DNA from: Candidatus Magasanikbacteria bacterium CG_4_10_14_0_2_um_filter_33_14
Lineage (GTDB): Bacteria; Patescibacteriota; Patescibacteriia; Magasanikbacterales; UBA922
Assembly: GCA_002793035.1 (NCBI GenBank)
Contig: PFPL01000045.1
Coordinates: 9,669-73,668 of the forward strand
DNA: 64,000 nucleotides
Reading direction: 5' to 3'
The notes under the pieces were generated by a model, which was not told the DNA's origin, searched no databases, and saw only the letters and a list, made by a program, of their open reading frames with translations. Position 1 is the stretch's first letter. Each line of letters starts with the position of its first letter. Positions 2,691-38,291 of the stretch are shown here, piece by piece. Made by a program: the position numbers and the translations under genes.

Positions 2691-5531
2691 TTATTTTATC
2701 TCAGTATTCACACTTGTTACACTTATATTATCATCTTGATCTAGAGTTTCTGCTATTAGTTTGTATTGACCTTTGGCAGGAGCTTCTCTCCAGTTTATAA
2801 TCAACTGATTGTTTATTAGATTTCCAAAATTTGTTACTTCTCCAATCAAATTTTTATTTATACCTTGTTCATAATATAGGGATACTTTTTGGAAACTTTC
2901 CAATTTTATTGGTTTGAGTACAATAGCTTTTGGAAAATTGGAAATTTCAATAGAACTATAATCTCCTTGAAAGATGGCTTGAGATTTTACTTCTTCAGCG
3001 CTTAAACTGAATTTTACATCTTGATATCTTTTGTTGCCAATATCATCTTCTACAATTATTGTTAGTTTGTGTTCACCAGGACTTTGTTCTTGCATGTAGT
3101 AGTGTAAGTTGAAAGGGTGTGATGTCTCTACTCCAACATAGACATCATCTATTTTATAACTTACTTTGGCAACACCTCTTGGTGCACTAAAACGAATATC
3201 AGTATCAAGCTGTCTGTCGTACACATTTTGTCCTTCAGTAGGGTACACAACCTCCATACTTGGTATAAGATCTAGACTGTGGGCATCATCATATTCTGTT
3301 GGTGGTTCATCGAAGCTAAAATTCCAATCAGGGTTTGCTTCTTTGTTTCTTGTTATCCAATCTTGTATACCTTGTTCCCAAGCTTCATACTGTGGATCGC
3401 TAGCTGGATTTTCTGGTGCGTCTCCACGAGGATCATCTTTTTTCACGTAGTAAAGAATAGAATGTGGTTGGATAAAAGTCTTTTCTTCTATATATTCGGC
3501 AGGTGTAGAACTTGTTGCAATTTTGCCTGTGGCTTTGTCTACTTGAAGAGTAATTTTACCACCTTCTGATCCTCGGAGTACTGGTTTTTGTGCATCATTT
3601 TCTGGTAAAGCTGGGAAGCTTTCAACAGCAGATCCTTCCAAAGCTTGTTTCATATAACTATTCCAAATTTTGGCAGCGACCATACTACCACCAAAACCAC
3701 GTTTCATAGGAGTATTATCTGTATTTCCTGCCCAGACACCGGTGACAATTGATGGTGTATATCCAATTGTCCAAGCATCTACATAACCATTTGTGGTACC
3801 TGTTTTGGCCGCTACAGGTCTACCTGGCAATGTTAGCACTCCACCTGCTCCAAAAGCATAAGCACGTGCAGGATCATCACTCAAAATGTTGGAGATACTA
3901 TCAGCTACTTTTTCATCGAGCACTCTTTCACCTTTTTGATTTTTCCATTCTTCCAAAACTTTGCCGTTGGAATCTTCCACTTTTAGAATACTATTGATAT
4001 CGTGTCTATAACCTCTATCTGCAAAAACAGCAAAGGCATTTGTATGTTCAATAAGTTTTACTTCTCCTCCACCAAGAACAAGTGACAAACCAAAGTTTCC
4101 ATTACTCAAAGTGGTATAACCCATTTTTTCAGAAAATTTTTCTGCACCACCTTCTCCAACTAGATACATCATTTTGACAGCTGGAATATTTAGAGATCCT
4201 TGTAGTGCTTGGCGAACAGTGATAGGACCATGCTCTTTCAAATCATAATTTTTTGGAATGTAATCTCTTCCAGAAGAAGCAAAATTGGTAACTGTATCAA
4301 AGAGGACTGTGTCTGGTGTATAACCTTTTTCAAACCCTGCGGCATAGACAATTGGTTTGAAAGAAGAACCTGGTTGTCTATTTCCTAGTGTAGCTACATT
4401 GAATTGTCCATCTATTGAATCATCAAAAAAATCTTTGGAACCTATCATGGCTAAAATTTGTCCTGTTTTTGGATCGATAGAAACAAGAGATGTGTTGTCG
4501 GCATCTGCAGCGGATAATATATCGCCAGCTTCTTCGTCTATTACTTTTTGAGCGACTTCTTGTTTGTCCCAATCTAGAGTTGTAATAACTTTTAGACCAC
4601 CTGTGTCTACGGTACTTTCTCCATATTTTGAAACCAATTGTTCTTTGACATAAAGAACAAAGTGAGGTGCTTCAATATTATTGAAAGTTTGTTTTATTAT
4701 CAATTCTTCTGCCTGAGCCTCTTCCATAGCTTCTTTTGTGATGTAGCCTTCAGCTTGCATTCTACTCAATACAAAGTCACGGCGTTTTTTTAGAGCTTCA
4801 TGATTGTTTAGATATGTTGAAGGTGCTTTTGGTAGACCTGCTAAGGTAGCTGATTCAGCTAGATCAAGTTCACTGACATGTTTACCAAAATAACTTTGGG
4901 ATGCGGACTCTACACCATAGTTGCTAGAACCATAAGGAATTTCGTTGAAATAAATTTTTAGTATTTGATCTTTGCTATATTTTTGTTCTAGCTTGATAGT
5001 CATTACGGCTTCTTTTATTTTACGTAAGATAGAATGTTCATTGGTAAGAATAGCATTTTTGACAAGTTGTTGTGTTAGTGTGGAAGCACCACTACCAATA
5101 CTTTTTTTGGTGAAAATACCGACTATAATAGAACGTAAAATGGACATAGGTCTAATACCTTTGTGTTCATAAAATTTTGTATCTTCTGTTGCTACTAAAC
5201 CATTTATTAAATCTTTTGGAATCTTATCTAATTCTACAATTGTACGTTTTTCATCACCAAATATTTCATAGAGAAGATGTTCACCTGTTCTATCATAAAT
5301 CTTGGTACTTTGAGCTACTGTTCTATCTGTGAGTTTGTCTGGATCTGGTAGATCTTTACTAACCCAAGCTGTAAGTATTGTGAGAAATAAAAAACTAAAA
5401 ACAGCAACGAAAAGAGAAAAATATATTACAAATTTTTTGATTTTTCTTTTTAGTTCAGAATCTTTTTTGTTTTTATTTTTTTTATTTTTTAAATAGCCGT
5501 AGGAACGCTTATTTAGTTGTGGAATAGGCAT
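2691..5531 (-). CDS. class A penicillin-binding protein (PBP1A-type glycosyltransferase/transpeptidase)
   Basis: GT51 motifs EDTKFYEHKGI and GASTLTQQLVKN; transpeptidase SSFK (SxxK), SLN and KTGT; N-terminal TM. The ORF track starts at an upstream TTG (5582); the first ATG (MPIPQL) is at 5531. Confidence 0.85.
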   Translation of the reverse strand: MPIPQLNKRSYGYLKNKKNKNKKDSELKRKIKKFVIYFSLFVAVFSFLFLTILTAWVSKDLPDPDKLTDRTVAQSTKIYDRTGEHLLYEIFGDEKRTIVELDKIPKDLINGLVATEDTKFYEHKGIRPMSILRSIIVGIFTKKSIGSGASTLTQQLVKNAILTNEHSILRKIKEAVMTIKLEQKYSKDQILKIYFNEIPYGSSNYGVESASQSYFGKHVSELDLAESATLAGLPKAPSTYLNNHEALKKRRDFVLSRMQAEGYITKEAMEEAQAEELIIKQTFNNIEAPHFVLYVKEQLVSKYGESTVDTGGLKVITTLDWDKQEVAQKVIDEEAGDILSAADADNTSLVSIDPKTGQILAMIGSKDFFDDSIDGQFNVATLGNRQPGSSFKPIVYAAGFEKGYTPDTVLFDTVTNFASSGRDYIPKNYDLKEHGPITVRQALQGSLNIPAVKMMYLVGEGGAEKFSEKMGYTTLSNGNFGLSLVLGGGEVKLIEHTNAFAVFADRGYRHDINSILKVEDSNGKVLEEWKNQKGERVLDEKVADSISNILSDDPARAYAFGAGGVLTLPGRPVAAKTGTTNGYVDAWTIGYTPSIVTGVWAGNTDNTPMKRGFGGSMVAAKIWNSYMKQALEGSAVESFPALPENDAQKPVLRGSEGGKITLQVDKATGKIATSSTPAEYIEEKTFIQPHSILYYVKKDDPRGDAPENPASDPQYEAWEQGIQDWITRNKEANPDWNFSFDEPPTEYDDAHSLDLIPSMEVVYPTEGQNVYDRQLDTDIRFSAPRGVAKVSYKIDDVYVGVETSHPFNLHYYMQEQSPGEHKLTIIVEDDIGNKRYQDVKFSLSAEEVKSQAIFQGDYSSIEISNFPKAIVLKPIKLESFQKVSLYYEQGINKNLIGEVTNFGNLINNQLIINWREAPAKGQYKLIAETLDQDDNISVTSVNTEIK

Positions 5532-6351: not shown

Positions 6352-6412
6352 GAAATTTTGATATTAAAAACTGTTTGGAAATTAAAAATTCCTAAATTTA
6401 GGAATTTTTATA

Positions 6413-6470
6413 GAGGTACCGGCGAGAATCGCCCCGCCCTTCGCGAAGGGCGGGGGTTGCAGACTCTGCT
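6413..6470 (-). repeat. partial duplicate of the tRNA-Cys 3' end (T-arm/acceptor) fused to a perfect 24-bp GC palindrome
   Basis: AGGTACCGGCGAGAATCG (18 bp) repeats the 3' end of the adjacent tRNA-Cys. It is followed by CCCCGCCCTTCGCGAAGGGCGGGG (a perfect palindrome). No 5' acceptor complement is present, so it is not a functional tRNA. Confidence 0.5.
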
Positions 6471-6487
6471 TTAATTTTAAGTTTGTT

Positions 6488-6562
6488 TGGAGGTACCGGC
6501 GAGAATCGAACTCACGAATAGAGGTTTTGCAGACCCCTGCCTTACCGCTTGGCTACGGTACC
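6488..6562 (-). tRNA. tRNA-Cys (GCA)
   Basis: Manual cloverleaf: acceptor GGTACCG/CGGTACC, D-arm GCC/GGC, anticodon loop CTGCAAA (GCA), T-arm GTGAG-TTCGATT-CTCGC, discriminator T, CCA encoded. Confidence 0.85.
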
Positions 6563-6827
6563 ATAATATTTTTTACCCAGCTATGATAACACAAAATCTT
6601 TTTAATTTCAATAGTTTACAATTTGTAAAGATAATCTTAACAAAAAGTTATATACATGTTATAGTATGCTGTTCCGTTTTATACGGATAAGTACATTACA
6701 AAAGATAGTTTTAGTGGAGTTTTTTGTCGGTAGGGGATTTTTGTTTCTTTTTTTAAGATATAGAAATCCCCATTCCGACAGGATAATTCTGTTCGGATTT
6801 TACTTTCCAGGGGGAAAGGAGTTTGCC

Positions 6828-7889
6828 GTGATTCTCAATTTCCGTTTCTTGAGCACTCTCGTGCTCATGGCGTTCTTCGTCCTCGTCTCGGCTTGCCGAT
6901 CGGGTGAAGAGGATACTTTCAACAAAGAACTGCTGAGCAACTCGGCTACGGTCGTCAAGCAGCCAAAACCTCAGTGGGGAGGCGCCAAGGAAGACCGCGA
7001 CCAGTGGGGTGAGAGCTCCAAGCCGGAGATGGTTGAGTGCCCTCTCGACCACAATAACCGGTTCAATAAACATTGGGATATGGTGTCCTCTGACACTTGT
7101 CTGGCGCGTGTTCGTCATTCTTCCCCCTCCTACCTCAAGCTACAGCAGGAGAACGACGAGCGTGTCAAGTTGGAGGCACAGCAGAAGACTCATGAAGAGC
7201 ATGAGAAGGCTCGTCGCATCGAAGAAAGGAAGGTGCTCGTAGAGCGTCTCAAGACTTGCTTCGACAAGGAAGATAGTCGTCCTCAGTGGCGACAGGATGT
7301 CGAGTTTGGACTTCGTGCCAAGGACGTTCTTCTCGAGGTGCAGTACGACGACTACGTCGACAGCAAGGTCTATCCCTGCTATGACGACGCGAGGCTCTGC
7401 GTCAAGGATGTCGAGGGCTGTGAGCTCGTCGAGCAGTCCAAGAAGTACAACCTCGAGCGAGACAAGAACTTCGTCGCGCTTATTTGGAAGATTCTCAACT
7501 CCAAGGAGGAGATCGCTCCCCGACAGTTCTGTTGGGATGGATGCTCGGTCTTCTCGCGTGGTGATCTCGCTCGTAAGACGATGGTTGTCATGGAGAAGTA
7601 CGGGTGGACGCCTGAGGACTTCGGCTCCAAGACCGATGACTTCGTGGTGGCCATCAAGAAGAGTTATCAAGAGGCCTTCAAGTTCGCCACCCAGGACATT
7701 GAAGTCGTCTTCAAATGCAAAAAGGACGACCAGGAGGGAGTATTCCTCGACGAGGATTGTCAGTTTCTCGAAACTGAGCAATCCGATGTTTTGTCGGCTC
7801 TCTGTGACGAGTTCTTGAGAACGGCTTCCTTTGCTGGGCTGACCTCTGAGCAGATCAGCAAGCTCCATTGTGAGGGTTTTGACGAGTAG
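6828..7889 (+). CDS. GC-rich, cysteine-rich, acidic putative lipoprotein (compositionally foreign)
   Basis: GTG start preceded by GGGGAAAGGAG; signal peptide ending in lipobox LVSAC; about 14 Cys; coiled-coil segment. GC content clearly far above the flanks by eye (codons ctc/gtc/gac/aag). The overlapping ORFs on the other strand and frame are GC-rich artefacts. Confidence 0.55.
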   Translation: MILNFRFLSTLVLMAFFVLVSACRSGEEDTFNKELLSNSATVVKQPKPQWGGAKEDRDQWGESSKPEMVECPLDHNNRFNKHWDMVSSDTCLARVRHSSPSYLKLQQENDERVKLEAQQKTHEEHEKARRIEERKVLVERLKTCFDKEDSRPQWRQDVEFGLRAKDVLLEVQYDDYVDSKVYPCYDDARLCVKDVEGCELVEQSKKYNLERDKNFVALIWKILNSKEEIAPRQFCWDGCSVFSRGDLARKTMVVMEKYGWTPEDFGSKTDDFVVAIKKSYQEAFKFATQDIEVVFKCKKDDQEGVFLDEDCQFLETEQSDVLSALCDEFLRTASFAGLTSEQISKLHCEGFDE

Positions 7890-8126
7890 ATCGTCGACAT
7901 TCTCCATCTAGACTATCTTTTGGAGGGGAGAACGGTAAACAGTGTAATATCTGTCCCGTTTTCCCATTCCATTCGACTATCTTTTTTATAAATTAGAAAA
8001 GATTGAGAAACAAAAAACTGCCTTAAAAAAGACGGTTTTTTGTTTTAGAGTAATTATTTTCTTTGAATTATTATGTCAATAAAAGGTTGAAAAATATCTT
8101 AAAATGAGTTATACTGCATCTCACTT

Positions 8127-9910: not shown

Positions 9911-10018
9911 AAAAATTTAAATTATATAAAAAGTATATCTTTATTTATCTTGATGTGTCAAATAAAATTAAACAAACAAAAAAAGAACTTTTTGGTTCTT
10001 ATATTTTTTATGGGGGTG

Positions 10019-10055
10019 CCTGCGAGGAAAAAGAAAAGTTCTCTTTCCTCGCAGG
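10019..10055. other. GC-rich 12-bp-stem hairpin in a divergent intergenic region
   Basis: CCTGCGAGGAAA-N13-TTTCCTCGCAGG. Confidence 0.3.
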
Positions 10056-10185
10056 ACTTGGTTGTTGGTCCCTGTTTAGTTGTGTGTGATCCACTGGTAG
10101 CAATACTTAATGATTTTTTTGATGTTAAAAAAACTTTGTGTTATAATCAAATAAATTTTACAAATTAATTTTTTAAGGAGGGCAT

Positions 10186-13100
10186 ATGGATAAAAGATTT
10201 TTTGTTATAAAAAAATTTTATTTTTTAATTTTGGTTACACTCTTTTTGAGTGTTTTTTTATTTATTAATTTTGTGCGAGGTTCAAATAATGATATTGTCA
10301 TCACTGAAATTTGTCCGACTGGTTGTGCCAGTAGTGGTGAACAGTGGATAGAAATTTATAACAAAGGTAGTGAAGATGTCGATTTGTCTGGTTGGCGTTT
10401 TTGGGAAGCTGAAACTAACCATACACTAAGTATTAGTGTGAGTAGTACGATTCAAAGTTTTGTTTTGTCACCAGGAAGTTACGCTATAATCTCGCAAAAT
10501 GATATTACATTTTTTGATTTGCACCCAGAAGTTTCAATTTTGGTTTTAGATAGCTCTTGGAGTACTTTAAATAAAAGTGGTGAAGAAATTGGGATAAAAA
10601 TGGGTAGTGGAGATAGTGAATTCATTGAAAAATTTATTTATAAGTCAATTGAAAATAATTTTTCTTTAGAAAAAATTGATTACAATATTAATTCAACTGA
10701 CGAAAATAATTGGAAAGAGCATCCTGATGGAAATACTGTTGGAGGAAAGAATTATTGGTTTGTTGCAAATAATGATAACGACACAAATATTGTACCTGTT
10801 ACCAAAATTATTACCAATGGTACAGATTTTAAAATTGGAGAAGAAATAAATTTTGATGGTAGTCATTCGAGAGATAGTGATGGTCAAATTGTAGATTATA
10901 AATGGATTTTCGATAATAATACTTTGGCGACAAGCTCTGTTTTTTCTTACATCTTTCAAACAGTTGGACAATATGAAATTAGATTAGAGGTAACTGATAA
11001 TGATGGAGCAAAAGCGAGTGATACTTTTAATTTAAATATTTTAGAAGATTCAACTACCTCAACTTTATCAATAGGAACAACGAGTACGGATAATATTTTT
11101 TATAATATTGTTATCAACGAATTTGTGAGCGATCCTGTTTTGGAAGAAGATGAGTGGATAGAAATTTATAATAATTCTACTTCAACAATAGATCTAATAA
11201 ACTGGGAATTACATGAAGGTATCAAAGATAGTACTAGTACAAAAAAAATGAAAACTTTAGATAGTGTTTTGGAGGCTAATAGTTTTCTTGTTATTAATTT
11301 TAGTTCTAGTAAACTGAATAATTCAGGGGATAGAATTGTTTTTTATGATGATTTGGGAAATATTGTTGATCAAGTACGCTATGGAGATTGGATAGATCCA
11401 GATGATGAAAATTTGGCTGACAATGCACCTGCTACTTCAGATCCAAATGCAGTGGCGAGAATTGTAGATGGACAAAATATAGGAAATAATAAAAATGATT
11501 TTGCTGTAACAACTGAAAAAACACAAGGAGAACCAAATATTATCAAAGCACTTGTACCAGAATCAAATAATTCAAGCGGTGGAGGTGGTTCAAATTATAC
11601 ACCAATTAAAACTTACAGTCCGAAAAATATTTTGATAAATGAAATAGTTTCTGATCCTGCCGACGGTGAAGAAGAATTTGTTGAGTTGTATAACAACACT
11701 TCAGAAACTATAGATTTAACAAATTGGAAATTATCTGATGGAAGTGAAGCTGATACAATTTTGGATGGAGAAATATTGGCAAAAAAATATTTTGTTGTAG
11801 AAAAACCAAAAGGTAGTCTCAACAACGCGGGAGACTTAGTATTACTGACCGATCCTAGTGGACAAGAAATTGACAAAGTTGTCTATGGTACTTGGGATGA
11901 CGGAAATATTTATGACAATGCTTCTCCTGCCAATGATCCTTATTCACTTATCAGAAAAGTAGAAGGTCAAGATTCTGACAATGATTATTATGATTTTGTA
12001 ATTACTGATACTATCACCAAAAATGCCAAAAATATTTTTTCGATGAGTGGAGAAGAAAAAAGTTTAAATGAAAATATAATTTTACAAAGTAATATTGTTA
12101 TCAATGAAGTCTTTCCCAATCCAAAAGGTAGTGATAGTGAAGATGAATTCATTGAACTCTTTAACAAAGGGCAAGAGACTTTAGACTTGAAAGATTGGCA
12201 ACTATCTGATTCCACTAAGAAAAAATATACTATCAAGCAAGGAATTTTGAAACCAGGTGACTATTTTTTATTTAAACGTTCGATGACGGGTATTGCTCTC
12301 AATAATACAGGAGGAGACGAAGTAAAATTATATTCAGTGAGTGGCTCTGTAGTTGATCAAGTTAGTTATCCTGGTAGTGCAGAAGAAGACCTTAGTTATG
12401 TAAAAACTGAAGAGGGTAACTGGGTTTGGACGAGCAAAATCACTGCTGGCACTAAAAATATTATTGAAGGAAAAAGTGCTGAACCAATTATTGTAATTGA
12501 TGCTGACACTGAAGTCGCTGTTAACGAGTGGGTAACTTTTGATGCTTCTGATACTGTTAGTCCTGATGGTAAAAAACTTAGTTTCAATTGGGATTTCGCT
12601 GATGGTACTGATGATGAAGGTGCGAGTGTGGAACACAAATTTAGAGAAGAAGGCGTTTACTCTGTAACTTTGAAAGTCGATGATGGCACAAATAGTACTG
12701 AAAAACAAATTATAGTTACTGTAAAACTTAGTAGTGATTTTGTAGGAGGTTACAATGGTATAAGTGATGTTTTCAATTTACAAATTTCAGAAATTTTACC
12801 AAATCCTACTGGTTCGGACACTACAGAATTTATTGAACTATATAATCTAACTGATGAAACTATAGATATTTCAGGTTTGAAACTTGACGATGAAGAAGGT
12901 GGCTCCAAAGCTTATACAATTCCTGATAACACAATTATTCTAGCTCATGAATACAAGGTTTTTGGAAGACAAGATACCAAGTTGGCTTTGAACAACACTA
13001 GTGATTCTGTTCGTATTCTTTATCCTGATGGGACAATAATCAATGAAATAAGATTCGATGATGTGGTAGAAGGGGCCTCTTATGTACGTGATAGCGAGGG

Positions 13101-13959
13101 ATCTTGGCTTTGGACTAGTAACGTGACACCAGGAGCTGAAAATTTTGTAGCTGTTGTGCCACAAGTAAAAGGAACTAAAATTATTAAAGGAAAAAGTAAC
13201 GACATCAAACCTATTATCAACACGACTTTGTCCAAAGTTCGAGATGAAGATATTGGAGACTTAGTCTTTGTGACTGGCACAGTAGCGGTCGAGCCAGGCG
13301 TAATGGGAACACAATATTTTTATATTGTAAATGAAGTGGCAGGGGTGCAAGTATATATGTATAGCAAAGATTTTCCAAAATTAGAAATTGGTGATGAAGT
13401 TGAAATTACTGGTGAAATCACTGAGAGTGGCAATGAAACGAGAATAAAACTGAAAGAAAAAAGTGATATCAAAAAAATAGGGCATACAGATTTACCACAA
13501 GGACAAGTGGTTGAATTGGCGAATATAGGAGAAAGTTTTGAAGGGAGTTTAATAAAAGTAAATGGGGAAATTACTGAAATAAAAACTTCTTATATGTATG
13601 TAGATGATGGAACAGAAGAAATAAAAGTCTATTTCAAAGCTGGATCTGGAATTAAAAAAGATGTTTTTCGTGAAGGTGACTTGGTTGTTGTCACTGGACT
13701 TTTGCACCAAACTAAAACAGAGTATCAGCTTTTACCACGTACACAAAATGATATTATGAAAACTGGTGTAACTGAAGATTTTGTGACAAAACAAGAACAA
13801 GCTAAGAATCAAGATAATGCTGATATGGTCGAAAAATATTTGACTGCGACAGCAGGAGGTGTGACAGCAATATTTTTTGGGTTGTTTGCCAAGAATAGTG
13901 GTGGTAAGTTTTGGGAGAAAGTGAGGGGCTTTTTGAGAAAGATTTTTAGTAAAAAATAA
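10186..13959 (+). CDS. giant surface protein: five lamin-tail-domain (LTD) repeats, two PKD-like domains, two C-terminal OB-fold nucleic-acid-binding domains, C-terminal TM anchor
   Basis: Strong RBS AAGGAGGG. Repeated LTD signature I.INE...G..E(W/F)IE(I/L)YN...DL..W.L.D occurs five times. PKD-like DGSHSRDSDGQIVDYKWIF and FDASDTVSPDGKKLSFNWDF. OB-fold-like LVFVTGTVAVEPG...IGDEVEITGEI and GSLIKVNGEITEIK...GDLVVVTGLL. Hydrophobic C-terminus. Confidence 0.75.
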   Translation: MDKRFFVIKKFYFLILVTLFLSVFLFINFVRGSNNDIVITEICPTGCASSGEQWIEIYNKGSEDVDLSGWRFWEAETNHTLSISVSSTIQSFVLSPGSYAIISQNDITFFDLHPEVSILVLDSSWSTLNKSGEEIGIKMGSGDSEFIEKFIYKSIENNFSLEKIDYNINSTDENNWKEHPDGNTVGGKNYWFVANNDNDTNIVPVTKIITNGTDFKIGEEINFDGSHSRDSDGQIVDYKWIFDNNTLATSSVFSYIFQTVGQYEIRLEVTDNDGAKASDTFNLNILEDSTTSTLSIGTTSTDNIFYNIVINEFVSDPVLEEDEWIEIYNNSTSTIDLINWELHEGIKDSTSTKKMKTLDSVLEANSFLVINFSSSKLNNSGDRIVFYDDLGNIVDQVRYGDWIDPDDENLADNAPATSDPNAVARIVDGQNIGNNKNDFAVTTEKTQGEPNIIKALVPESNNSSGGGGSNYTPIKTYSPKNILINEIVSDPADGEEEFVELYNNTSETIDLTNWKLSDGSEADTILDGEILAKKYFVVEKPKGSLNNAGDLVLLTDPSGQEIDKVVYGTWDDGNIYDNASPANDPYSLIRKVEGQDSDNDYYDFVITDTITKNAKNIFSMSGEEKSLNENIILQSNIVINEVFPNPKGSDSEDEFIELFNKGQETLDLKDWQLSDSTKKKYTIKQGILKPGDYFLFKRSMTGIALNNTGGDEVKLYSVSGSVVDQVSYPGSAEEDLSYVKTEEGNWVWTSKITAGTKNIIEGKSAEPIIVIDADTEVAVNEWVTFDASDTVSPDGKKLSFNWDFADGTDDEGASVEHKFREEGVYSVTLKVDDGTNSTEKQIIVTVKLSSDFVGGYNGISDVFNLQISEILPNPTGSDTTEFIELYNLTDETIDISGLKLDDEEGGSKAYTIPDNTIILAHEYKVFGRQDTKLALNNTSDSVRILYPDGTIINEIRFDDVVEGASYVRDSEGSWLWTSNVTPGAENFVAVVPQVKGTKIIKGKSNDIKPIINTTLSKVRDEDIGDLVFVTGTVAVEPGVMGTQYFYIVNEVAGVQVYMYSKDFPKLEIGDEVEITGEITESGNETRIKLKEKSDIKKIGHTDLPQGQVVELANIGESFEGSLIKVNGEITEIKTSYMYVDDGTEEIKVYFKAGSGIKKDVFREGDLVVVTGLLHQTKTEYQLLPRTQNDIMKTGVTEDFVTKQEQAKNQDNADMVEKYLTATAGGVTAIFFGLFAKNSGGKFWEKVRGFLRKIFSKK

Positions 13960-21254: not shown

Positions 21255-21385
21255 AATTATATAAAAACATTAACTTATAAAAAAAAACACCAATAAATTG
21301 GTGGGTTTGTAATATTGAATAGTATGTTGTGCAGGTTCCCGCGTCTTCCCTCCTTGTTTTAAGAGTTGACGCGGGTTACCTTGTT

Positions 21386-21864
21386 TTATCCCAAGTAGAG
21401 ACCTCTCTTTTTGAGCTTCTCCAGAGTGGTCCAGCCCTGCTTGAAGGCTCTCTGGGTAAACACCTGCCCTAAGCGTTTCAGCTTGTCGGTATATGGGGTC
21501 CAAGTAGAGCAGCGAACCCTTTCCTCTTCGTTGACACCACGCATGATGTCGAAACTATTGAGGGGTGGGCGTAGAGGTTGAGCAGGATGGTCTCGCCATC
21601 TGCTTTGTTTTCGGGGAGGTGGCCGTGTTCGAAGTAGTCGAGGGCTTCCTCTCAGGTGAGCCACTTTTTCTCCAGTCCGTGCAAGAACCAGCTGATCTGG
21701 TTTGTGCCGAGACGTTGGAAGCTCGGCATGATTTGCCGGAGATCTTCAAGAATTCTCTTGAGGATCTGGAAATCCTCACTAGAAATATTCTCGAGATCAG
21801 AGATCAGCTGCTCGCAGTCTCGCAAGGTGCAAGCCAGCTGTTGATATGTCCTGTCAATTGGCAA
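21386..21864 (-). pseudogene. third gene of the GC-rich islet operon, interrupted by an in-frame TGA and a frameshift
   Basis: TTG start 6 nt after GGAGGA. The 70-aa ORF ends at TGA (21652-21654); same-frame read-through gives a plausible RKPLDYFEHGHLPENKADGETILLNLYAHP. A second frame continues as ...EEERVRCSTWTPYTDKLKRLGQVFTQRAFKQGWTTLEKLKKRGLYLG to 21386. Confidence 0.4.
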
Positions 21865-21866
21865 TT

Positions 21867-22130
21867 TCAGTCCTCCTGGTTGCAGTTGCCTTTGCAGCAG
21901 CAGTTATCTCTTGGGTCGCACTTGTTGCATTTGGAACAGTGCCGGTAATGACAATGTTCACATTTGCAGGTGAAGCGTTCGTCGATGATAGCTCGACAGT
22001 AGAAGCAGGTTGTGAAGTACCATCTCTTTCCACAATTGGGACAAAGACGAGCAGGATAGCCGTCTTTTGTTTCGTCCGATGTGGAAATGTGTCCGCATTC
22101 GCAGACGTATTCGTTGGTCTGTCTGTTCAA
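21867..22130 (-). CDS. cysteine-rich zinc-ribbon-like small protein, paralog 2 (novel family)
   Basis: 87 aa, 17 Cys. Shares with the upstream paralog the pattern CxCG-x9/10-GxPARxC-x2-CxKxWYxTTCFxC-x4-DER-...-CDP-x3-CxCxGxC. GC-rich codon usage. Confidence 0.6.
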   Translation of the reverse strand: MNRQTNEYVCECGHISTSDETKDGYPARLCPNCGKRWYFTTCFYCRAIIDERFTCKCEHCHYRHCSKCNKCDPRDNCCCKGNCNQED

Positions 22131-22249
22131 ATTTGTTTCTCCTTTGTAAGTGGACTTATTTTAAGTATAGCTAGGGAAATTGTTAAATGTCAATTTTTTT
22201 TATAAACAATGAAGCCCTCTTGTATTTCACAAGTGGGCTTTATCATTGA

Positions 22250-22519
22250 TCAGCAGGACCCTTCGCAGGTGCATTCACCTGAAGGATCACAGCTTCCGCA
22301 AGTGGGGCAGTGGAGGTTTTTGCAGACATTACAGACCTTGTTGAGACGTTCGTCTAGATGAGTGTCACAGAGAAAACAGGTAGTATAGTACCAAATTTTC
22401 TCGCAACTAAGACAGCGCCTGGCAGGATTACCATGCTTGTAGTCAGCCGTGGTGTATCCTCCACAGTCGCAAATATTTTTTGGATCAATCTTTTTTGCAG
22501 GACCTTCTCTAACACGCAT
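22250..22519 (-). CDS. cysteine-rich zinc-ribbon-like small protein, paralog 1 (novel family)
   Basis: 89 aa, 16 Cys; RBS AAGGAG 6 nt upstream of ATG; first gene of the minus-strand operon. Confidence 0.6.
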   Translation of the reverse strand: MRVREGPAKKIDPKNICDCGGYTTADYKHGNPARRCLSCEKIWYYTTCFLCDTHLDERLNKVCNVCKNLHCPTCGSCDPSGECTCEGSC

Positions 22520-22559
22520 TTTGTAGCTCCTTCTTGGGAAGTGTCAAAGAGATACTTTT

Positions 22560-37922: not shown

Positions 37923-38291
37923 ATGTCAGAAAATGCAAAAGTAAGTTGGGTAATATTTTTTATTTTTACCATTGGCTTTGGGTCTGGAGGTATTTTCGAT
38001 AACTGTGTGGTACACAGCGAAAACTGCTTCACGGCCAAGGAGGCCAAGGCTTGTGACATCTTCACGCTCGATGGTAAGACTGTCTACACCGTCAGCTGGC
38101 CCTACCCGGAGGATAAGGAGCACAAGTACTGCTCCGTGCCTGACATCATGGTCAGGTGCAAGGGACCTTCTGGAGAGCCGGCCTGTTTTGAGAAGGTGAT
38201 GATAAACGACGATGTCTACAACTTTCCGGAGTGGGGCATCTGCCCTGCAACACCGCCAGCTCCGAAGGCTGAGGCGGAGCCTGGAAGCTGA
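37923..38291 (+). CDS. small secreted/membrane-anchored Cys-rich protein with a GC-rich mature domain
   Basis: 122 aa. AT-rich N-terminal hydrophobic segment (VSWVIFFIFTIGFGSGG) followed by a GC-rich region with 8 Cys. Terminated by hairpin repeat copy 2. Confidence 0.5.
   Translation: MSENAKVSWVIFFIFTIGFGSGGIFDNCVVHSENCFTAKEAKACDIFTLDGKTVYTVSWPYPEDKEHKYCSVPDIMVRCKGPSGEPACFEKVMINDDVYNFPEWGICPATPPAPKAEAEPGS

What the first reader, a model, noticed from the sequence alone, without database searches (positions are those of the whole stretch)
6828..7889. Strongly GC-atypical gene for a Cys-rich acidic lipoprotein next to tRNA-Cys
This 1.06-kb ORF has GC-rich codon usage. The overlapping reverse and alternate-frame ORFs are typical GC-rich artefacts. 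It sits in an AT-rich genome immediately 5' of tRNA-Cys, with a partial tRNA 3'-end repeat on the other side. It encodes a lipobox signal peptide (LVSAC), about 14 Cys, a coiled-coil segment and many D/E residues. It is preceded by an imperfect inverted repeat (GTCGGtaGGGGATTT ... AAATCCCCattCCGAC) and followed by short direct repeats (GACTATCTTTT twice). The likeliest explanation is horizontal acquisition, possibly from a high-GC host or partner organism, of a secreted or surface effector.
Basis: partly seen in the sequence, partly recalled or inferred. Interest (0 to 1): 0.7.

Follow-up and report, generated by a model that had tools for sequence, protein, structure and literature searches.

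The report
Persistently GC-rich orphan lipoprotein gene cassette
A real but uncharacterised surface-lipoprotein gene in an AT-rich groundwater bacterium (Candidatus Magasanikbacteria) uses GC-rich codons, and this looks like a long-maintained property of the gene rather than a leftover of recent transfer from a GC-rich donor.

Summary
ORF 6828-7889 has 53% GC and GC3 0.69, in a 33.6% GC window where 40 other long ORFs have GC3 0.13-0.29 (z about 13). It has an RBS, a lipobox signal peptide (Cys23), 13 Cys and 19% Asp+Glu.

The gene is a self-contained unit, about 6617-8084, with its own promoter, structured leader, 3' UTR and terminator. It lies between tRNA-Cys and a LysM/M23 peptidase gene. 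Four alleles exist (window, L002, L001, L011), all at this site. Two related genomes (L007, L008) have empty sites.

No homologue exists elsewhere in about 15 billion proteins, so no GC-rich donor is visible. The alleles are 91%, 47% and 31% identical to the window protein. Their synonymous sites are nearly randomised, yet all keep GC3 0.68-0.72. The flanking UTRs stay AT-rich and conserved.

The tRNA repeat does not bracket the gene, and no integrase is present.

What keeps the gene GC-rich is unresolved. A second GC-rich, Cys-rich exported-protein family (37923-38291) behaves similarly.

The parts
6617..8084 (+). Whole accessory cassette, inserted relative to empty tRNA-Cys/M23 sites. Boundaries are uncertain by about 10 nt and there is no clear target-site duplication.
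   Evidence: Alignment of filled sites (window, L001, L011) with empty sites (L007, L008).
6637..6665 (+). Sigma-70-type promoter: TTAACA, 17-nt spacer, TG-extended TATAGT. The -35 box is TTGACA in the other three alleles.
   Evidence: conservation.
6672..6827 (+). Conserved AT-rich 5' leader of about 155 nt (36% GC). It contains a small hairpin near 6674-6688, the invariant stretch ACATTACAAAAGATAGTTT, the long hairpin 6726-6779 extended to about 6716-6790, and a hairpin at 6803-6818 that pairs part of the Shine-Dalgarno sequence.
   Evidence: 47 predicted pairs, 3 with compensatory changes; GC.
6815..6821 (+). Shine-Dalgarno sequence AAAGGAG, 6 nt before the GTG start.
   Evidence: Sequence. 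The start position is shared by L001 (GTG) and L011 (ATG).
6828..7889 (+). CDS of 353 aa with GC3 0.69. Residues 1-22 (6828-6893) form the signal peptide. The lipobox Cys23 is at 6894-6896. A variable acidic linker, a long charged helix and a Cys-rich all-alpha C-terminal domain ending in ...QLHCExxDD follow.
7879..7897 (+). Conserved hairpin with the stop codon in its loop.
   Evidence: 7 pairs, kept in all four alleles.
7902..7922 (+). 3' UTR segment complementary to the 5' leader at 6699-6719 (21 nt, 81%). It contains the first GACTATCTTTT copy (7911-7921).
   Evidence: I5, D10; conservation.
7921..7971 (+). Conserved 3' UTR hairpin (GGAGGGGAGAACGG...CCGTTTTCCCATTCC).
7975..7985 (+). Second GACTATCTTTT copy.
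   Evidence: D10.
8008..8045 (+). Intrinsic terminator hairpin plus T-run, with compensatory changes in L011.
   Evidence: I7; pairs 142-160 and 144-158 changed on both sides.
6488..6562 (-). tRNA-Cys(GCA). This is context: it forms the conserved left flank of the insertion site.

Best explanation
The feature is a single-gene accessory transcription unit specific to one group of Candidatus Magasanikbacteria (CPR/Patescibacteria). It lies between tRNA-Cys and the LysM/M23 peptidase gene.

**How it most likely works**
- A strong promoter drives a conserved, structured leader of about 155 nt. One hairpin in this leader occludes the Shine-Dalgarno sequence. This rests on sequence and conservation; the regulatory role is inferred.
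- The product is inferred to be exported by Sec, cleaved by signal peptidase II and lipidated at Cys23, which would tether it to the outer face of the membrane.
- It is inferred to present an acidic linker, a long charged helix and an all-alpha head rich in conserved cysteines, which probably form disulfides.
- It evolves far faster than its neighbours, at the protein level about 2-4 fold versus L002 and 10-fold versus L001. It exists as deeply diverged alleles. This is the pattern expected for a surface protein in an arms race with a host cell or phage. The divergence is shown; the cause is inferred.

**The GC-rich codon usage**
- It is genuine, but it is a long-standing, actively maintained state of the coding sequence. 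It is not the residue of a recent import from a high-GC donor.
- The unit uses the genome's rare codons: AAG, GAG, CAG, CTC, GTC and NNC, with no ATA or TTA.

**What keeps it GC-rich (rough odds, not demonstrated)**
- About 0.35: selection acting on the coding sequence itself. This could be slow, rare-codon translation or a more stable GC-rich mRNA for a cysteine-rich exported protein.
- About 0.2: GC-biased repair of heteroduplexes when diverged alleles recombine.
- About 0.2: an old import with unexpectedly slow amelioration.
For: **Real coding gene**
- dN/dS is below 1 in the + frame (0.31, 0.40, 0.45). Composition shows codon periodicity (GC3 > GC1 > GC2). The start, RBS, lipobox and 11-12 Cys positions are conserved.

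**Block insertion with its own signals**

**Restricted family**
- Only four alleles exist, all at this site.

**Stationarity of GC3**
- GC3 is 0.69, 0.68, 0.72 and 0.70 in the four alleles.
- Between the window and L001, same-amino-acid codons are identical in 92 of 159 cases. Codon usage alone predicts 75, so roughly 80% of synonymous sites have been redrawn.
- GC3 is the same at variable-residue codons (0.68-0.72) as at invariant-residue codons (0.73-0.81).
- Redrawing that many sites at the genome's equilibrium (GC3 about 0.22) would require an impossible ancestral GC3 above 1. This step is inference.

**Boundaries follow the CDS**
- The first 30 codons already have GC3 0.67, while the UTRs are 35-36% GC.

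**Not the genome's optimal codons**
- rpsF, rpsR and ssb in the same window have GC3 0.19-0.25 and prefer AAA and GAA.

**Old presence**
- L011, which carries the gene, is at least as distant from the window as the empty-site genomes. M23 protein identity is 69.5% for L011, against 69.4% and 68.8% for the empty-site genomes.

**Stable in populations**
- The window allele is identical on at least 12 contigs, and the L002 allele on 5.

**A second case**
- The GC-rich, Cys-rich TM-anchored family at 37923-38291 has the same codon signature. In a genome whose flanks are 92-97% identical, it is swapped or relocated.
Against: - Only four alleles exist, which amounts to about three independent lineages.
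- The dS estimates are Nei-Gojobori values near saturation, and they depend on aligning very divergent proteins.
- Outgroup polarisation of the window/L002 differences gave 27 GC-to-AT against 7 AT-to-GC changes. Taken at face value this suggests present decay. However, the same test gives the opposite bias for the AT-rich neighbour, as expected from a saturated outgroup, so it is uninformative.
- No function is shown. Both AlphaFold models are poor (pLDDT 49 and 52.5).
- Lgt and LspA are not in the window, so lipidation is inferred from sequence alone.
- mRNA folding compared with synonymous shuffles is not consistently unusual. The alleles give z of -1.2, -1.5, -2.3 and -5.6; control genes give -0.6 to -3.9.
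- An unsampled GC-rich donor cannot be excluded by database absence.
Confidence: 0.6

Rival explanations
1. The gene was acquired horizontally from a high-GC organism, such as the host of this episymbiont. It still shows the donor's composition because amelioration is incomplete.
For: - The composition pattern (GC1/2/3 of 0.58/0.33/0.69) looks like a native gene of a genome of about 55% GC.
- The unit is an indel relative to L007 and L008.
- It lies next to a tRNA gene in a region with other rearrangements.
- Other GC-rich patches exist in the window and in L008, which could mean repeated imports.
- CPR bacteria depend on hosts (background knowledge).
Against: - No homologue exists anywhere outside this locus.
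- GC3 is unchanged in alleles with near-saturated synonymous divergence, and is equal in conserved and replaced codons.
- The inserted block includes AT-rich native-type promoter, UTRs and terminator, which are conserved at 72-77% even to L011.
- No integrase or flanking att repeat is present. The gene lies on the tRNA's 5' side.
Confidence: 0.2
2. GC-biased gene conversion at a recombination hot spot. Deeply diverged alleles are exchanged across the conserved flanks. GC-biased repair of the many mismatches in heteroduplex DNA then drives the variable CDS, but not the conserved UTRs, toward GC.
For: - Cassette divergence does not track flank divergence. Window vs L001 gives CDS 60% and UTRs 74%, against 89% for the adjacent M23 start. 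Window vs L002 gives CDS 94.2%, matching M23 at 94.3%.
- Between the window and L002, dS is mosaic: 0.055 in the N-terminal half and 0.231 in the C-terminal half.
- GC enrichment stops where sequence conservation begins.
- The tm122 family shows allele swapping between close genomes.
- An association between recombination and higher GC3 in bacteria is published (PMC4450053).
Against: - A shift of GC3 from about 0.22 to 0.70 would have to come from conversion bias alone, and nothing here shows it can be that strong.
- The first 23 codons (signal peptide) are well conserved yet already GC3-rich.
- No direct recombination test was possible with four alleles.
Confidence: 0.2
3. A programmed variation system. 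One version is a vlsE-like expression site fed by silent cassettes. Others are a DGR target, or a gene switched by inversion between the flanking inverted repeats at 6699-6719 and 7902-7922.
For: - The gene encodes a surface lipoprotein that is GC-rich in an AT-rich genome, with an upstream inverted repeat and flanking short repeats. This superficially resembles vls, where cassettes are 49% GC against 28.6% for the chromosome (PMC11499132).
- A 21-nt inverted repeat, 81% complementary, flanks the CDS.
- DGRs are reported to be common in CPR (recalled from the literature, not checked here).
Against: - No paralogous or template-like copy of any part of the gene is found in 64 kb.
- No reverse transcriptase or recombinase was found among the annotated ORFs.
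- Coding-strand GC skew is 0.05-0.09 with few G-runs, against about 0.52 in vls.
- Each allele is identical across many independent assemblies, and always in the same orientation.
Confidence: 0.04
4. Artefact. The region could be a chimeric assembly or contamination, or a non-coding GC-rich region whose ORF is fortuitous.
For: GC-rich DNA in an AT-rich genome opens long ORFs in several frames.
Against: - The same junctions appear in independent assemblies from several projects and assemblers.
- Purifying selection and codon periodicity are specific to one frame. The signal peptide and Cys framework are conserved across 31-47% identical alleles.
- There is no Rfam match.
Confidence: 0.01

Closest known systems
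tRNA-linked genomic islets and compositionally atypical ORFan genes attributed to horizontal transfer
   Same: Atypical GC and codon usage. It is adjacent to a tRNA gene and shows presence/absence among relatives. It has no homologues and encodes a surface or secreted product.
   Different: It lies on the 5' side of the tRNA. There is no integrase and no flanking att repeat. The block carries native-type AT-rich regulatory DNA. The composition is stationary across deeply diverged alleles instead of ameliorating.
Borrelia VlsE / vls antigenic-variation locus (PMC11499132)
   Same: A surface lipoprotein gene whose GC content (about 50%) far exceeds that of an AT-rich genome. The authors of that paper argue the high G+C and GC skew are kept by selection rather than transfer. 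Inverted and direct repeats occur nearby.
   Different: No silent cassettes are found in 64 kb. There is no strong GC skew or G-runs (0.05-0.09 against about 0.52). There is no within-population variation and no sequence or detectable fold relationship. Variation here is between lineages, not within a clone.
Bacterial lipoproteins (SPase II substrates; PROSITE PS51257-type lipobox, pattern recalled from memory)
   Same: The n-region carries Arg, an uncharged hydrophobic h-region follows, and L-V-S-A-C places Cys at residue 23. The L011 allele keeps this with A-A-A-C at residue 19.
   Different: The mature domain belongs to no described lipoprotein family. The processing enzymes were not seen in the window.
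Hypervariable surface-protein loci kept as deep allelic lineages between conserved flanks, such as phage-receptor or adhesin genes under diversifying selection
   Same: Flanks and UTRs are conserved, while the coding part is far more diverged than the neighbouring genes. dS is mosaic, and allele divergence is decoupled from genome divergence.
   Different: Such loci are not normally marked by a complete reversal of codon usage.

Membership tests
Bacterial lipoprotein (Sec/SPase II substrate) | N-terminal K/R, an uncharged hydrophobic stretch, then lipobox [LVI][ASTVI][GAS]C with Cys at residues 15-35 | tested here: met
   MILNFRFLSTLVLMAFFVLVSAC has R6 and C23. It was the only ORF in the window to match. 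The feature is conserved in L002, L001 and L011.
Bacterial lipoprotein (Sec/SPase II substrate) | Genome encodes Lgt and LspA, and the product is lipid-modified | not testable with these tools
   Neither enzyme appears among the window ORFs scanned with Pfam. The rest of the genome is not available.
Integrase-mediated tRNA-linked genomic island | Integrase or recombinase gene within or next to the island | tested here: not met
   The cassette holds one ORF. Its neighbours are a 181-aa protein of unknown function, PBP1a and a LysM/M23 peptidase.
Integrase-mediated tRNA-linked genomic island | Island lies at the tRNA 3' end and is bracketed by a direct repeat of that end | tested here: not met
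   The gene is upstream of the tRNA's 5' end. The repeat (6405-6431 and 6482-6508) lies on the 3' side with only about 56 bp between its two copies. It is absent from L002 and L011.
Integrase-mediated tRNA-linked genomic island | Atypical composition and presence/absence among relatives | tested here: met
Recent horizontal transfer from a high-GC donor (amelioration model) | Homologues in a donor lineage with matching composition | tested here: not met
   No hit outside the locus in 5.8 billion proteins, in 1.84 billion representatives, or in viral contigs.
Recent horizontal transfer from a high-GC donor (amelioration model) | Composition drifts toward the recipient's as synonymous divergence increases | tested here: not met
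   GC3 is 0.68-0.72 in all four alleles despite near-saturated synonymous sites. GC3 is equal in variable and invariant codons.
vls-like segmental gene-conversion system | Array of silent cassettes about 90% identical to the expressed gene | tested here: not met
   No second copy of any segment in the 64-kb window. The rest of the genome was not searched.
vls-like segmental gene-conversion system | High G+C together with strong coding-strand GC skew and G-runs | tested here: not met
   High G+C is present. GC skew is only 0.05-0.09, against 0.52 reported for vls.
vls-like segmental gene-conversion system | Sequence varies within a population | tested here: not met
   Identical protein on at least 12 contigs (window allele) and 5 contigs (L002 allele).
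Diversity-generating retroelement target | Reverse transcriptase plus a template repeat matching a variable repeat with adenine-specific differences | tested here: not met
   No template-like repeat and no RT among the ORFs scanned. Tested in the window only.
Invertible (phase-variable) DNA segment | Flanking inverted repeats, a nearby site-specific recombinase, and both orientations observed | tested here: not met
   The inverted repeat is present (21 nt, 81%). No recombinase was found, and all assemblies show one orientation.

The most novel reading that the evidence does not exclude
Magasanikbacteria carry a class of small, self-contained cassettes for fast-evolving, cysteine-rich exported proteins. 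This lipoprotein and the tm122 family at 37923-38291 are two examples. Their coding regions are held at about 50-55% GC (GC3 0.6-0.7) inside a 33% GC genome by a gene-specific force. That force would be either selection for rare-codon or GC-rich mRNA, or strong GC-biased repair tied to allele exchange. On this reading, a compositional island that looks like horizontal transfer is instead a stable, functionally maintained state linked to hypervariability.
Probability: 0.3. Interest if true: 0.75.

Novelty: new variant of a known kind. Interest (0 to 1): 0.5.

Why it matters
Atypical GC and codon usage is routinely read as evidence of horizontal transfer. Here the same signal persists through near-complete turnover of synonymous sites, in a gene with no relatives anywhere else. 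That would make it a clean natural case of gene-specific maintenance of base composition against strong AT mutation pressure.

This bears on how compositional HGT detectors are interpreted. It also bears on the debate between selection and biased gene conversion as drivers of bacterial GC content.

Biologically, the cassette and the similar tm122 family are candidate cell-surface determinants of host or phage interaction in an uncultured CPR lineage whose partners are unknown.

Tried and rejected
- **Family and structure searches gave nothing.** This covers Pfam, NCBIfam, PHROGs and PADLOC, a PDB profile search, phage GenBank blastn and viral contigs by DNA motif and by protein profile.
- **Structure prediction failed twice.** The mature protein with 3 sequences gave pLDDT 49. 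The C-terminal domain with 4 sequences gave pLDDT 52.5. I therefore ran no fold search.
- **Metagenome scan with the conserved leader motif.** It returned only a copy of the L002 allele and one chance hit.
- **Rfam on the leader and 3' UTR.** Only sub-threshold noise.
- **Outgroup polarisation of window/L002 substitutions.** Rejected as uninformative because the outgroup is saturated. The AT-rich neighbour shows the mirror-image bias.
- **mRNA folding against synonymous-codon shuffles.** No consistent excess structure relative to control genes.
- **Translational selection for optimal codons.** Rejected. Ribosomal-protein genes in the same window use the opposite codons.
- **DGR, vls-like and inversion models.** Rejected.
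- **Antisense ORF as the real gene.** Rejected on frame-specific constraint. Antisense stops can only arise from sense TTA, CTA or TCA codons, which are nearly absent.
- **Target-site duplication at the cassette ends.** TCAATA occurs at both ends in the window but is not conserved in L001 or L011.
Full report
**1. What is there**

The window is 33.6% GC. It starts just after dnaA/dnaN of a Candidatus Magasanikbacteria (CPR) genome. The ORF product is GenBank PIZ95750.1, annotated 'hypothetical protein'.

The ORF runs from GTG 6828 to TAG 7889 and encodes 353 aa. It is 53.4% GC with GC1/GC2/GC3 of 0.58/0.33/0.69. Forty other ORFs of at least 150 aa have mean GC3 0.226 (sd 0.035, maximum 0.288), so this ORF is about 13 sd out. 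The GC rise spans about 6800-7960.

The longer 407-aa ORF called by annotation pipelines starts at ATG 6666, inside the -10 region, and is not conserved. L001 and L011 start at the position of GTG 6828, behind an AAAGGAG or GGAG Shine-Dalgarno sequence.

The overlapping ORFs (7140-7907 and 6753-7118 on the minus strand, 7297-7818 on the plus strand) are by-products of the composition. In the relevant antisense frame, a stop can only arise from a sense TTA, CTA or TCA codon. The gene has one such codon.

The product begins MILNFRFLSTLVLMAFFVLVSAC. That gives an n-region Arg, an uncharged h-region, and a lipobox with Cys at residue 23. It is the only ORF in the window with such an N-terminus. 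The protein has 13 Cys (3.7%, against 0.8% in background genes), 19.3% Asp+Glu and 14.5% Lys+Arg. Low-confidence models predict a long charged helix followed by an all-alpha C-terminal part.

**2. The gene is one self-contained unit**

- An extended -10 promoter lies at 6637-6665: TTAACA, 17 nt, TG-n-TATAGT. The -35 box is TTGACA in the other alleles.
- A leader of about 155 nt (36% GC) follows.
- A small hairpin at 6803-6818 pairs part of the Shine-Dalgarno sequence. It shows compensatory changes in L001 and L011.
- After the stop codon come a hairpin holding the stop codon in its loop, then the first GACTATCTTTT, a conserved GC-containing hairpin (7921-7971), the second GACTATCTTTT, and an intrinsic terminator at 8008-8045 with compensatory changes.
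- The invariant leader stretch AAAAGATAGTTT is complementary to both GACTATCTTTT copies. The pair 6699-6719 and 7902-7922 is 21 nt long and 81% complementary. This could be 5'-3' UTR pairing or a repeated protein-binding site. I could not distinguish between these.

**3. Relatives and the insertion site**

Two searches of 5.8 billion proteins and an exhaustive HMMER profile search of 1.84 billion representatives found only members of this locus:
- the window allele and a fragment of it;
- P0001 (91% identical; Magasanikbacteria RIFOXYC12_FULL_33; loci L002-L005 and L013);
- P0002 (45-47% identical; L001);
- P0004 (31% identical; L011; Patescibacteria STC_93).

All four alleles lie between tRNA-Cys and the LysM/M23 peptidase gene. 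Two other Magasanikbacteria genomes have the tRNA followed directly by the M23 promoter. They are L007 (CG10_36_16) and L008 (SO_2016_LW3_30). Aligning filled and empty sites places the inserted block at about 6617-8084, which is promoter through terminator.

By M23 protein identity, L011 (69.5% to the window) is no closer to the window than the empty-site genomes are (69.4% and 68.8%). L007 and L008 pair with each other at 82%. The unit is therefore either old and was lost once, or it has moved between lineages by recombination in the conserved flanks.

The gene cannot be an assembly artefact. The same junctions recur in ENA, JGI, Logan and NCBI assemblies.

**4. The tRNA signature does not apply**

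The gene lies upstream of the tRNA's 5' end and is divergently oriented. The partial copy of the tRNA 3' end (6405-6431) lies beyond the tRNA's 3' end. It is part of a 77-bp insertion absent from L002 and L011, with only about 56 bp between the two copies. No integrase is present.

**5. Evolution of the coding region**

Window vs L002 (genome-wide DNA identity about 91-94%):
- The gene has dS 0.135, dN 0.042 and dN/dS 0.31.
- Its neighbours have dS 0.19-0.33, dN 0.011-0.027 and dN/dS 0.035-0.14.
- dS is mosaic within the gene: 0.055 in the N-terminal half and 0.231 in the C-terminal half.

Window vs L001:
- The gene has dS about 1.2 and dN 0.48.
- The adjacent M23 start has dS 0.475 and dN 0.047.
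- DNA identity is 60% in the CDS and 74% in the UTRs. It is 89% in the M23 start and 96% in the tRNA.

Window vs L011:
- CDS identity is 50%, UTRs 72-77% and M23 69-72%.

Three conclusions follow. The + frame is under purifying selection, so the gene is real. The protein evolves far faster than its neighbours, about 2-4 fold versus L002 and 10-fold versus L001. Cassette divergence does not scale with flank divergence, which suggests deep allelic lineages exchanged by recombination rather than a steady local hypermutation.

Each allele is identical on many contigs from different samples. There is therefore no rapid programmed variation.

**6. The composition is stationary**

GC3 is 0.69, 0.68, 0.72 and 0.70 in the four alleles. 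All share the same reversed codon choice. For the window allele:

| Codon(s) | Gene | Background genes |
|---|---|---|
| AAG (Lys) | 84% | 14% |
| GAG (Glu) | 76% | 14% |
| CTC (Leu) | 60% | 7% |
| ATA and TTA | none | 30% of Ile and 23% of Leu |
| A at third position | 0.08 | 0.33 |

Between the window and L001, codons for identical residues are the same in 92 of 159 cases. Codon usage alone predicts 75, so about four fifths of synonymous positions have been redrawn. GC3 is as high in codons whose amino acid differs (0.68-0.72) as in invariant ones (0.73-0.81).

If those positions had been redrawn at the genome's equilibrium of about 0.22, present values would require an ancestral GC3 above 1. 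That is my inference. Something therefore keeps G and C at synonymous sites.

The bias begins within the first codons and ends at the stop codon. The first 30 codons have GC3 0.67, and the UTRs are 35-36% GC. It is not the genome's set of favoured codons either. rpsF, rpsR and ssb in this window have GC3 0.19-0.25 and prefer AAA and GAA.

Native mRNA folding is not consistently stronger than in synonymous shuffles. The alleles give z of -1.2, -1.5, -2.3 and -5.6. Three control genes give -0.6, -1.8 and -3.9.

**7. What it most likely is and does**

The sequence-level points are shown. The unit has a promoter, a structured leader, a lipobox signal peptide, a conserved framework of 11-12 Cys with variable spacing (which fits disulfides better than a metal site), and an acidic, helical mature part.

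The functional reading is inferred. The product would be exported by Sec, cleaved by SPase II and lipidated at Cys23. It would be displayed on the cell surface and evolve under diversifying pressure from a host cell or phage. The neighbourhood is rich in envelope and surface genes: PBP1a, LysM/M23, a 1257-aa LTD/PKD protein, type IV pilus genes and T4SS-pilin-like proteins.

For the GC maintenance I give rough odds:
- 0.35 for selection on the coding sequence itself, through rare-codon or slow translation, or mRNA stability, for a cysteine-rich exported protein;
- 0.2 for GC-biased heteroduplex repair during allele exchange. An association between recombination and GC3 in bacteria is reported in PMC4450053. 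Nothing here shows that conversion bias alone could shift GC3 by about 0.45;
- 0.2 for an old import with unexpectedly slow amelioration;
- the remainder for causes not considered.

**8. Comparison with known systems**

The closest analogy in behaviour is Borrelia vlsE. It is also a surface lipoprotein gene held at about 49% GC in a 28.6% GC genome, which the authors attribute to selection (PMC11499132). Its defining features are absent here:
- there are no silent cassettes in 64 kb;
- GC skew is 0.05-0.09 rather than about 0.52;
- there is no within-population variation.

DGR and invertible-segment models also fail. There is no RT, no template repeat, no recombinase and only one orientation. 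It is not an integrase-type tRNA island (section 4).

The mature protein matches no described family. It is probably a lipoprotein by its signal sequence only.

**9. A second case in the same window**

The scan for GC3-rich ORFs found two more patches.

- The ORF 37923-38291 encodes 122 aa: an AT-rich TM anchor followed by a GC-rich ectodomain with 7 Cys. It has the same codon signature (AAG 8 vs AAA 1, GAG 8 vs GAA 2, third-position A 0.14).
- In the L002-type genome the flanks are 92-97% identical. There, the syntenic gene is a GC-rich 132-aa protein only 27% identical. A 63% homologue (P0006) sits at a different intergenic site that is empty in the window.
- The patch 21300-22520 holds two paralogous proteins of 87 and 89 aa with 16 and 14 Cys.

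GC-rich, Cys-rich, fast-changing cassettes therefore appear to be a recurring feature of these genomes. This argues for a class-specific cause and raises the interest of the finding. I followed it only partly.

**10. Verdict**

Novelty: a new variant of a known kind. The region looks like a horizontally acquired compositional islet but behaves as a maintained state.

Interest is 0.5. The conclusion rests on only four alleles, and the maintaining force and the protein's function remain unknown.

Noticed in passing
window 37923-38291 (GC-rich part about 37990-38290); L019 799-1197 (-) and 3001-3378 (+): This is a second GC-rich gene (GC3 0.61). It has an AT-rich N-terminal TM anchor and a GC-rich ectodomain with 7 Cys, and the same AAG/GAG/NNC codon signature as the lipoprotein gene. 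In the L002-type genome (flanks 92-97% identical) the syntenic gene is a different GC-rich protein, only 27% identical. A 63% homologue (P0006) sits at another intergenic site that is empty in the window. No Pfam or PADLOC match.
   Followed up: partly
window 21300-22520: A patch of about 1.2 kb at 47-55% GC. The minus-strand ORFs 21867-22130 (87 aa, 16 Cys) and 22250-22519 (89 aa, 14 Cys) are paralogous, zinc-ribbon-like and match no family. Further GC-rich ORFs at 21386-21864 (-) and 21565-21948 (+) overlap, and it is unclear which is real.
   Followed up: partly
window 6405-6470 (hairpin 6432-6455); L007 1892-1915 and 2339-2362: This is a truncated tRNA-Cys-like copy. It keeps the anticodon-loop and 3' acceptor segments, but the region between them is replaced by a perfect GC-rich palindrome, CCCCGCCCTTCGCGAAGGGCGGGG. 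It is a 77-bp insertion absent from L002 and L011. L007 carries two copies of the GC hairpin; the one I read (around 2339-2362) sits in a full-length tRNA-Cys-like variant that ARAGORN does not call. A short ORF that I read by eye as a GIY-YIG nuclease lies between the tRNA copies (about L007 2070-2310, minus strand). The tRNA-Cys locus looks like a hot spot for small insertions.
   Followed up: partly
window 6383-6410; L011 about 4512-4539: A perfect 28-nt AT-rich palindrome, TAAAAATTCCTAAATTTAGGAATTTTTA, lies just beyond the tRNA-Cys 3' end. It is conserved in L011.
   Followed up: no
window 10186-13959: The 1257-aa LTD/PKD surface-protein gene is only 76-78% identical in DNA to its L002 and L003 counterparts, while surrounding genes are 91-94% identical. 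It is another fast-evolving surface gene in the same neighbourhood, but it has normal AT-rich composition (GC3 0.20).
   Followed up: no
window 9911-10157 vs L002 13250-14105: L002 has about 850 bp with no match in the window; the called NUDIX hydrolase gene (13256-13702) lies within this stretch. This is a small indel between genomes that are about 93% identical.
   Followed up: no
L008 806-1498: A 230-aa ORF with 58% GC and GC3 0.67 lies next to the PBP1a gene in a genome that lacks the lipoprotein cassette. It has no Pfam match. It is another GC-rich orphan in an AT-rich Magasanikbacteria genome.
   Followed up: no
window 6699-6719 vs 7902-7922 and 7975-7985: The invariant leader sequence AAAAGATAGTTT is complementary to both 3' UTR GACTATCTTTT copies in all four alleles. 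This could be 5'-3' UTR pairing or a repeated protein-binding site. It remains unexplained.
   Followed up: partly
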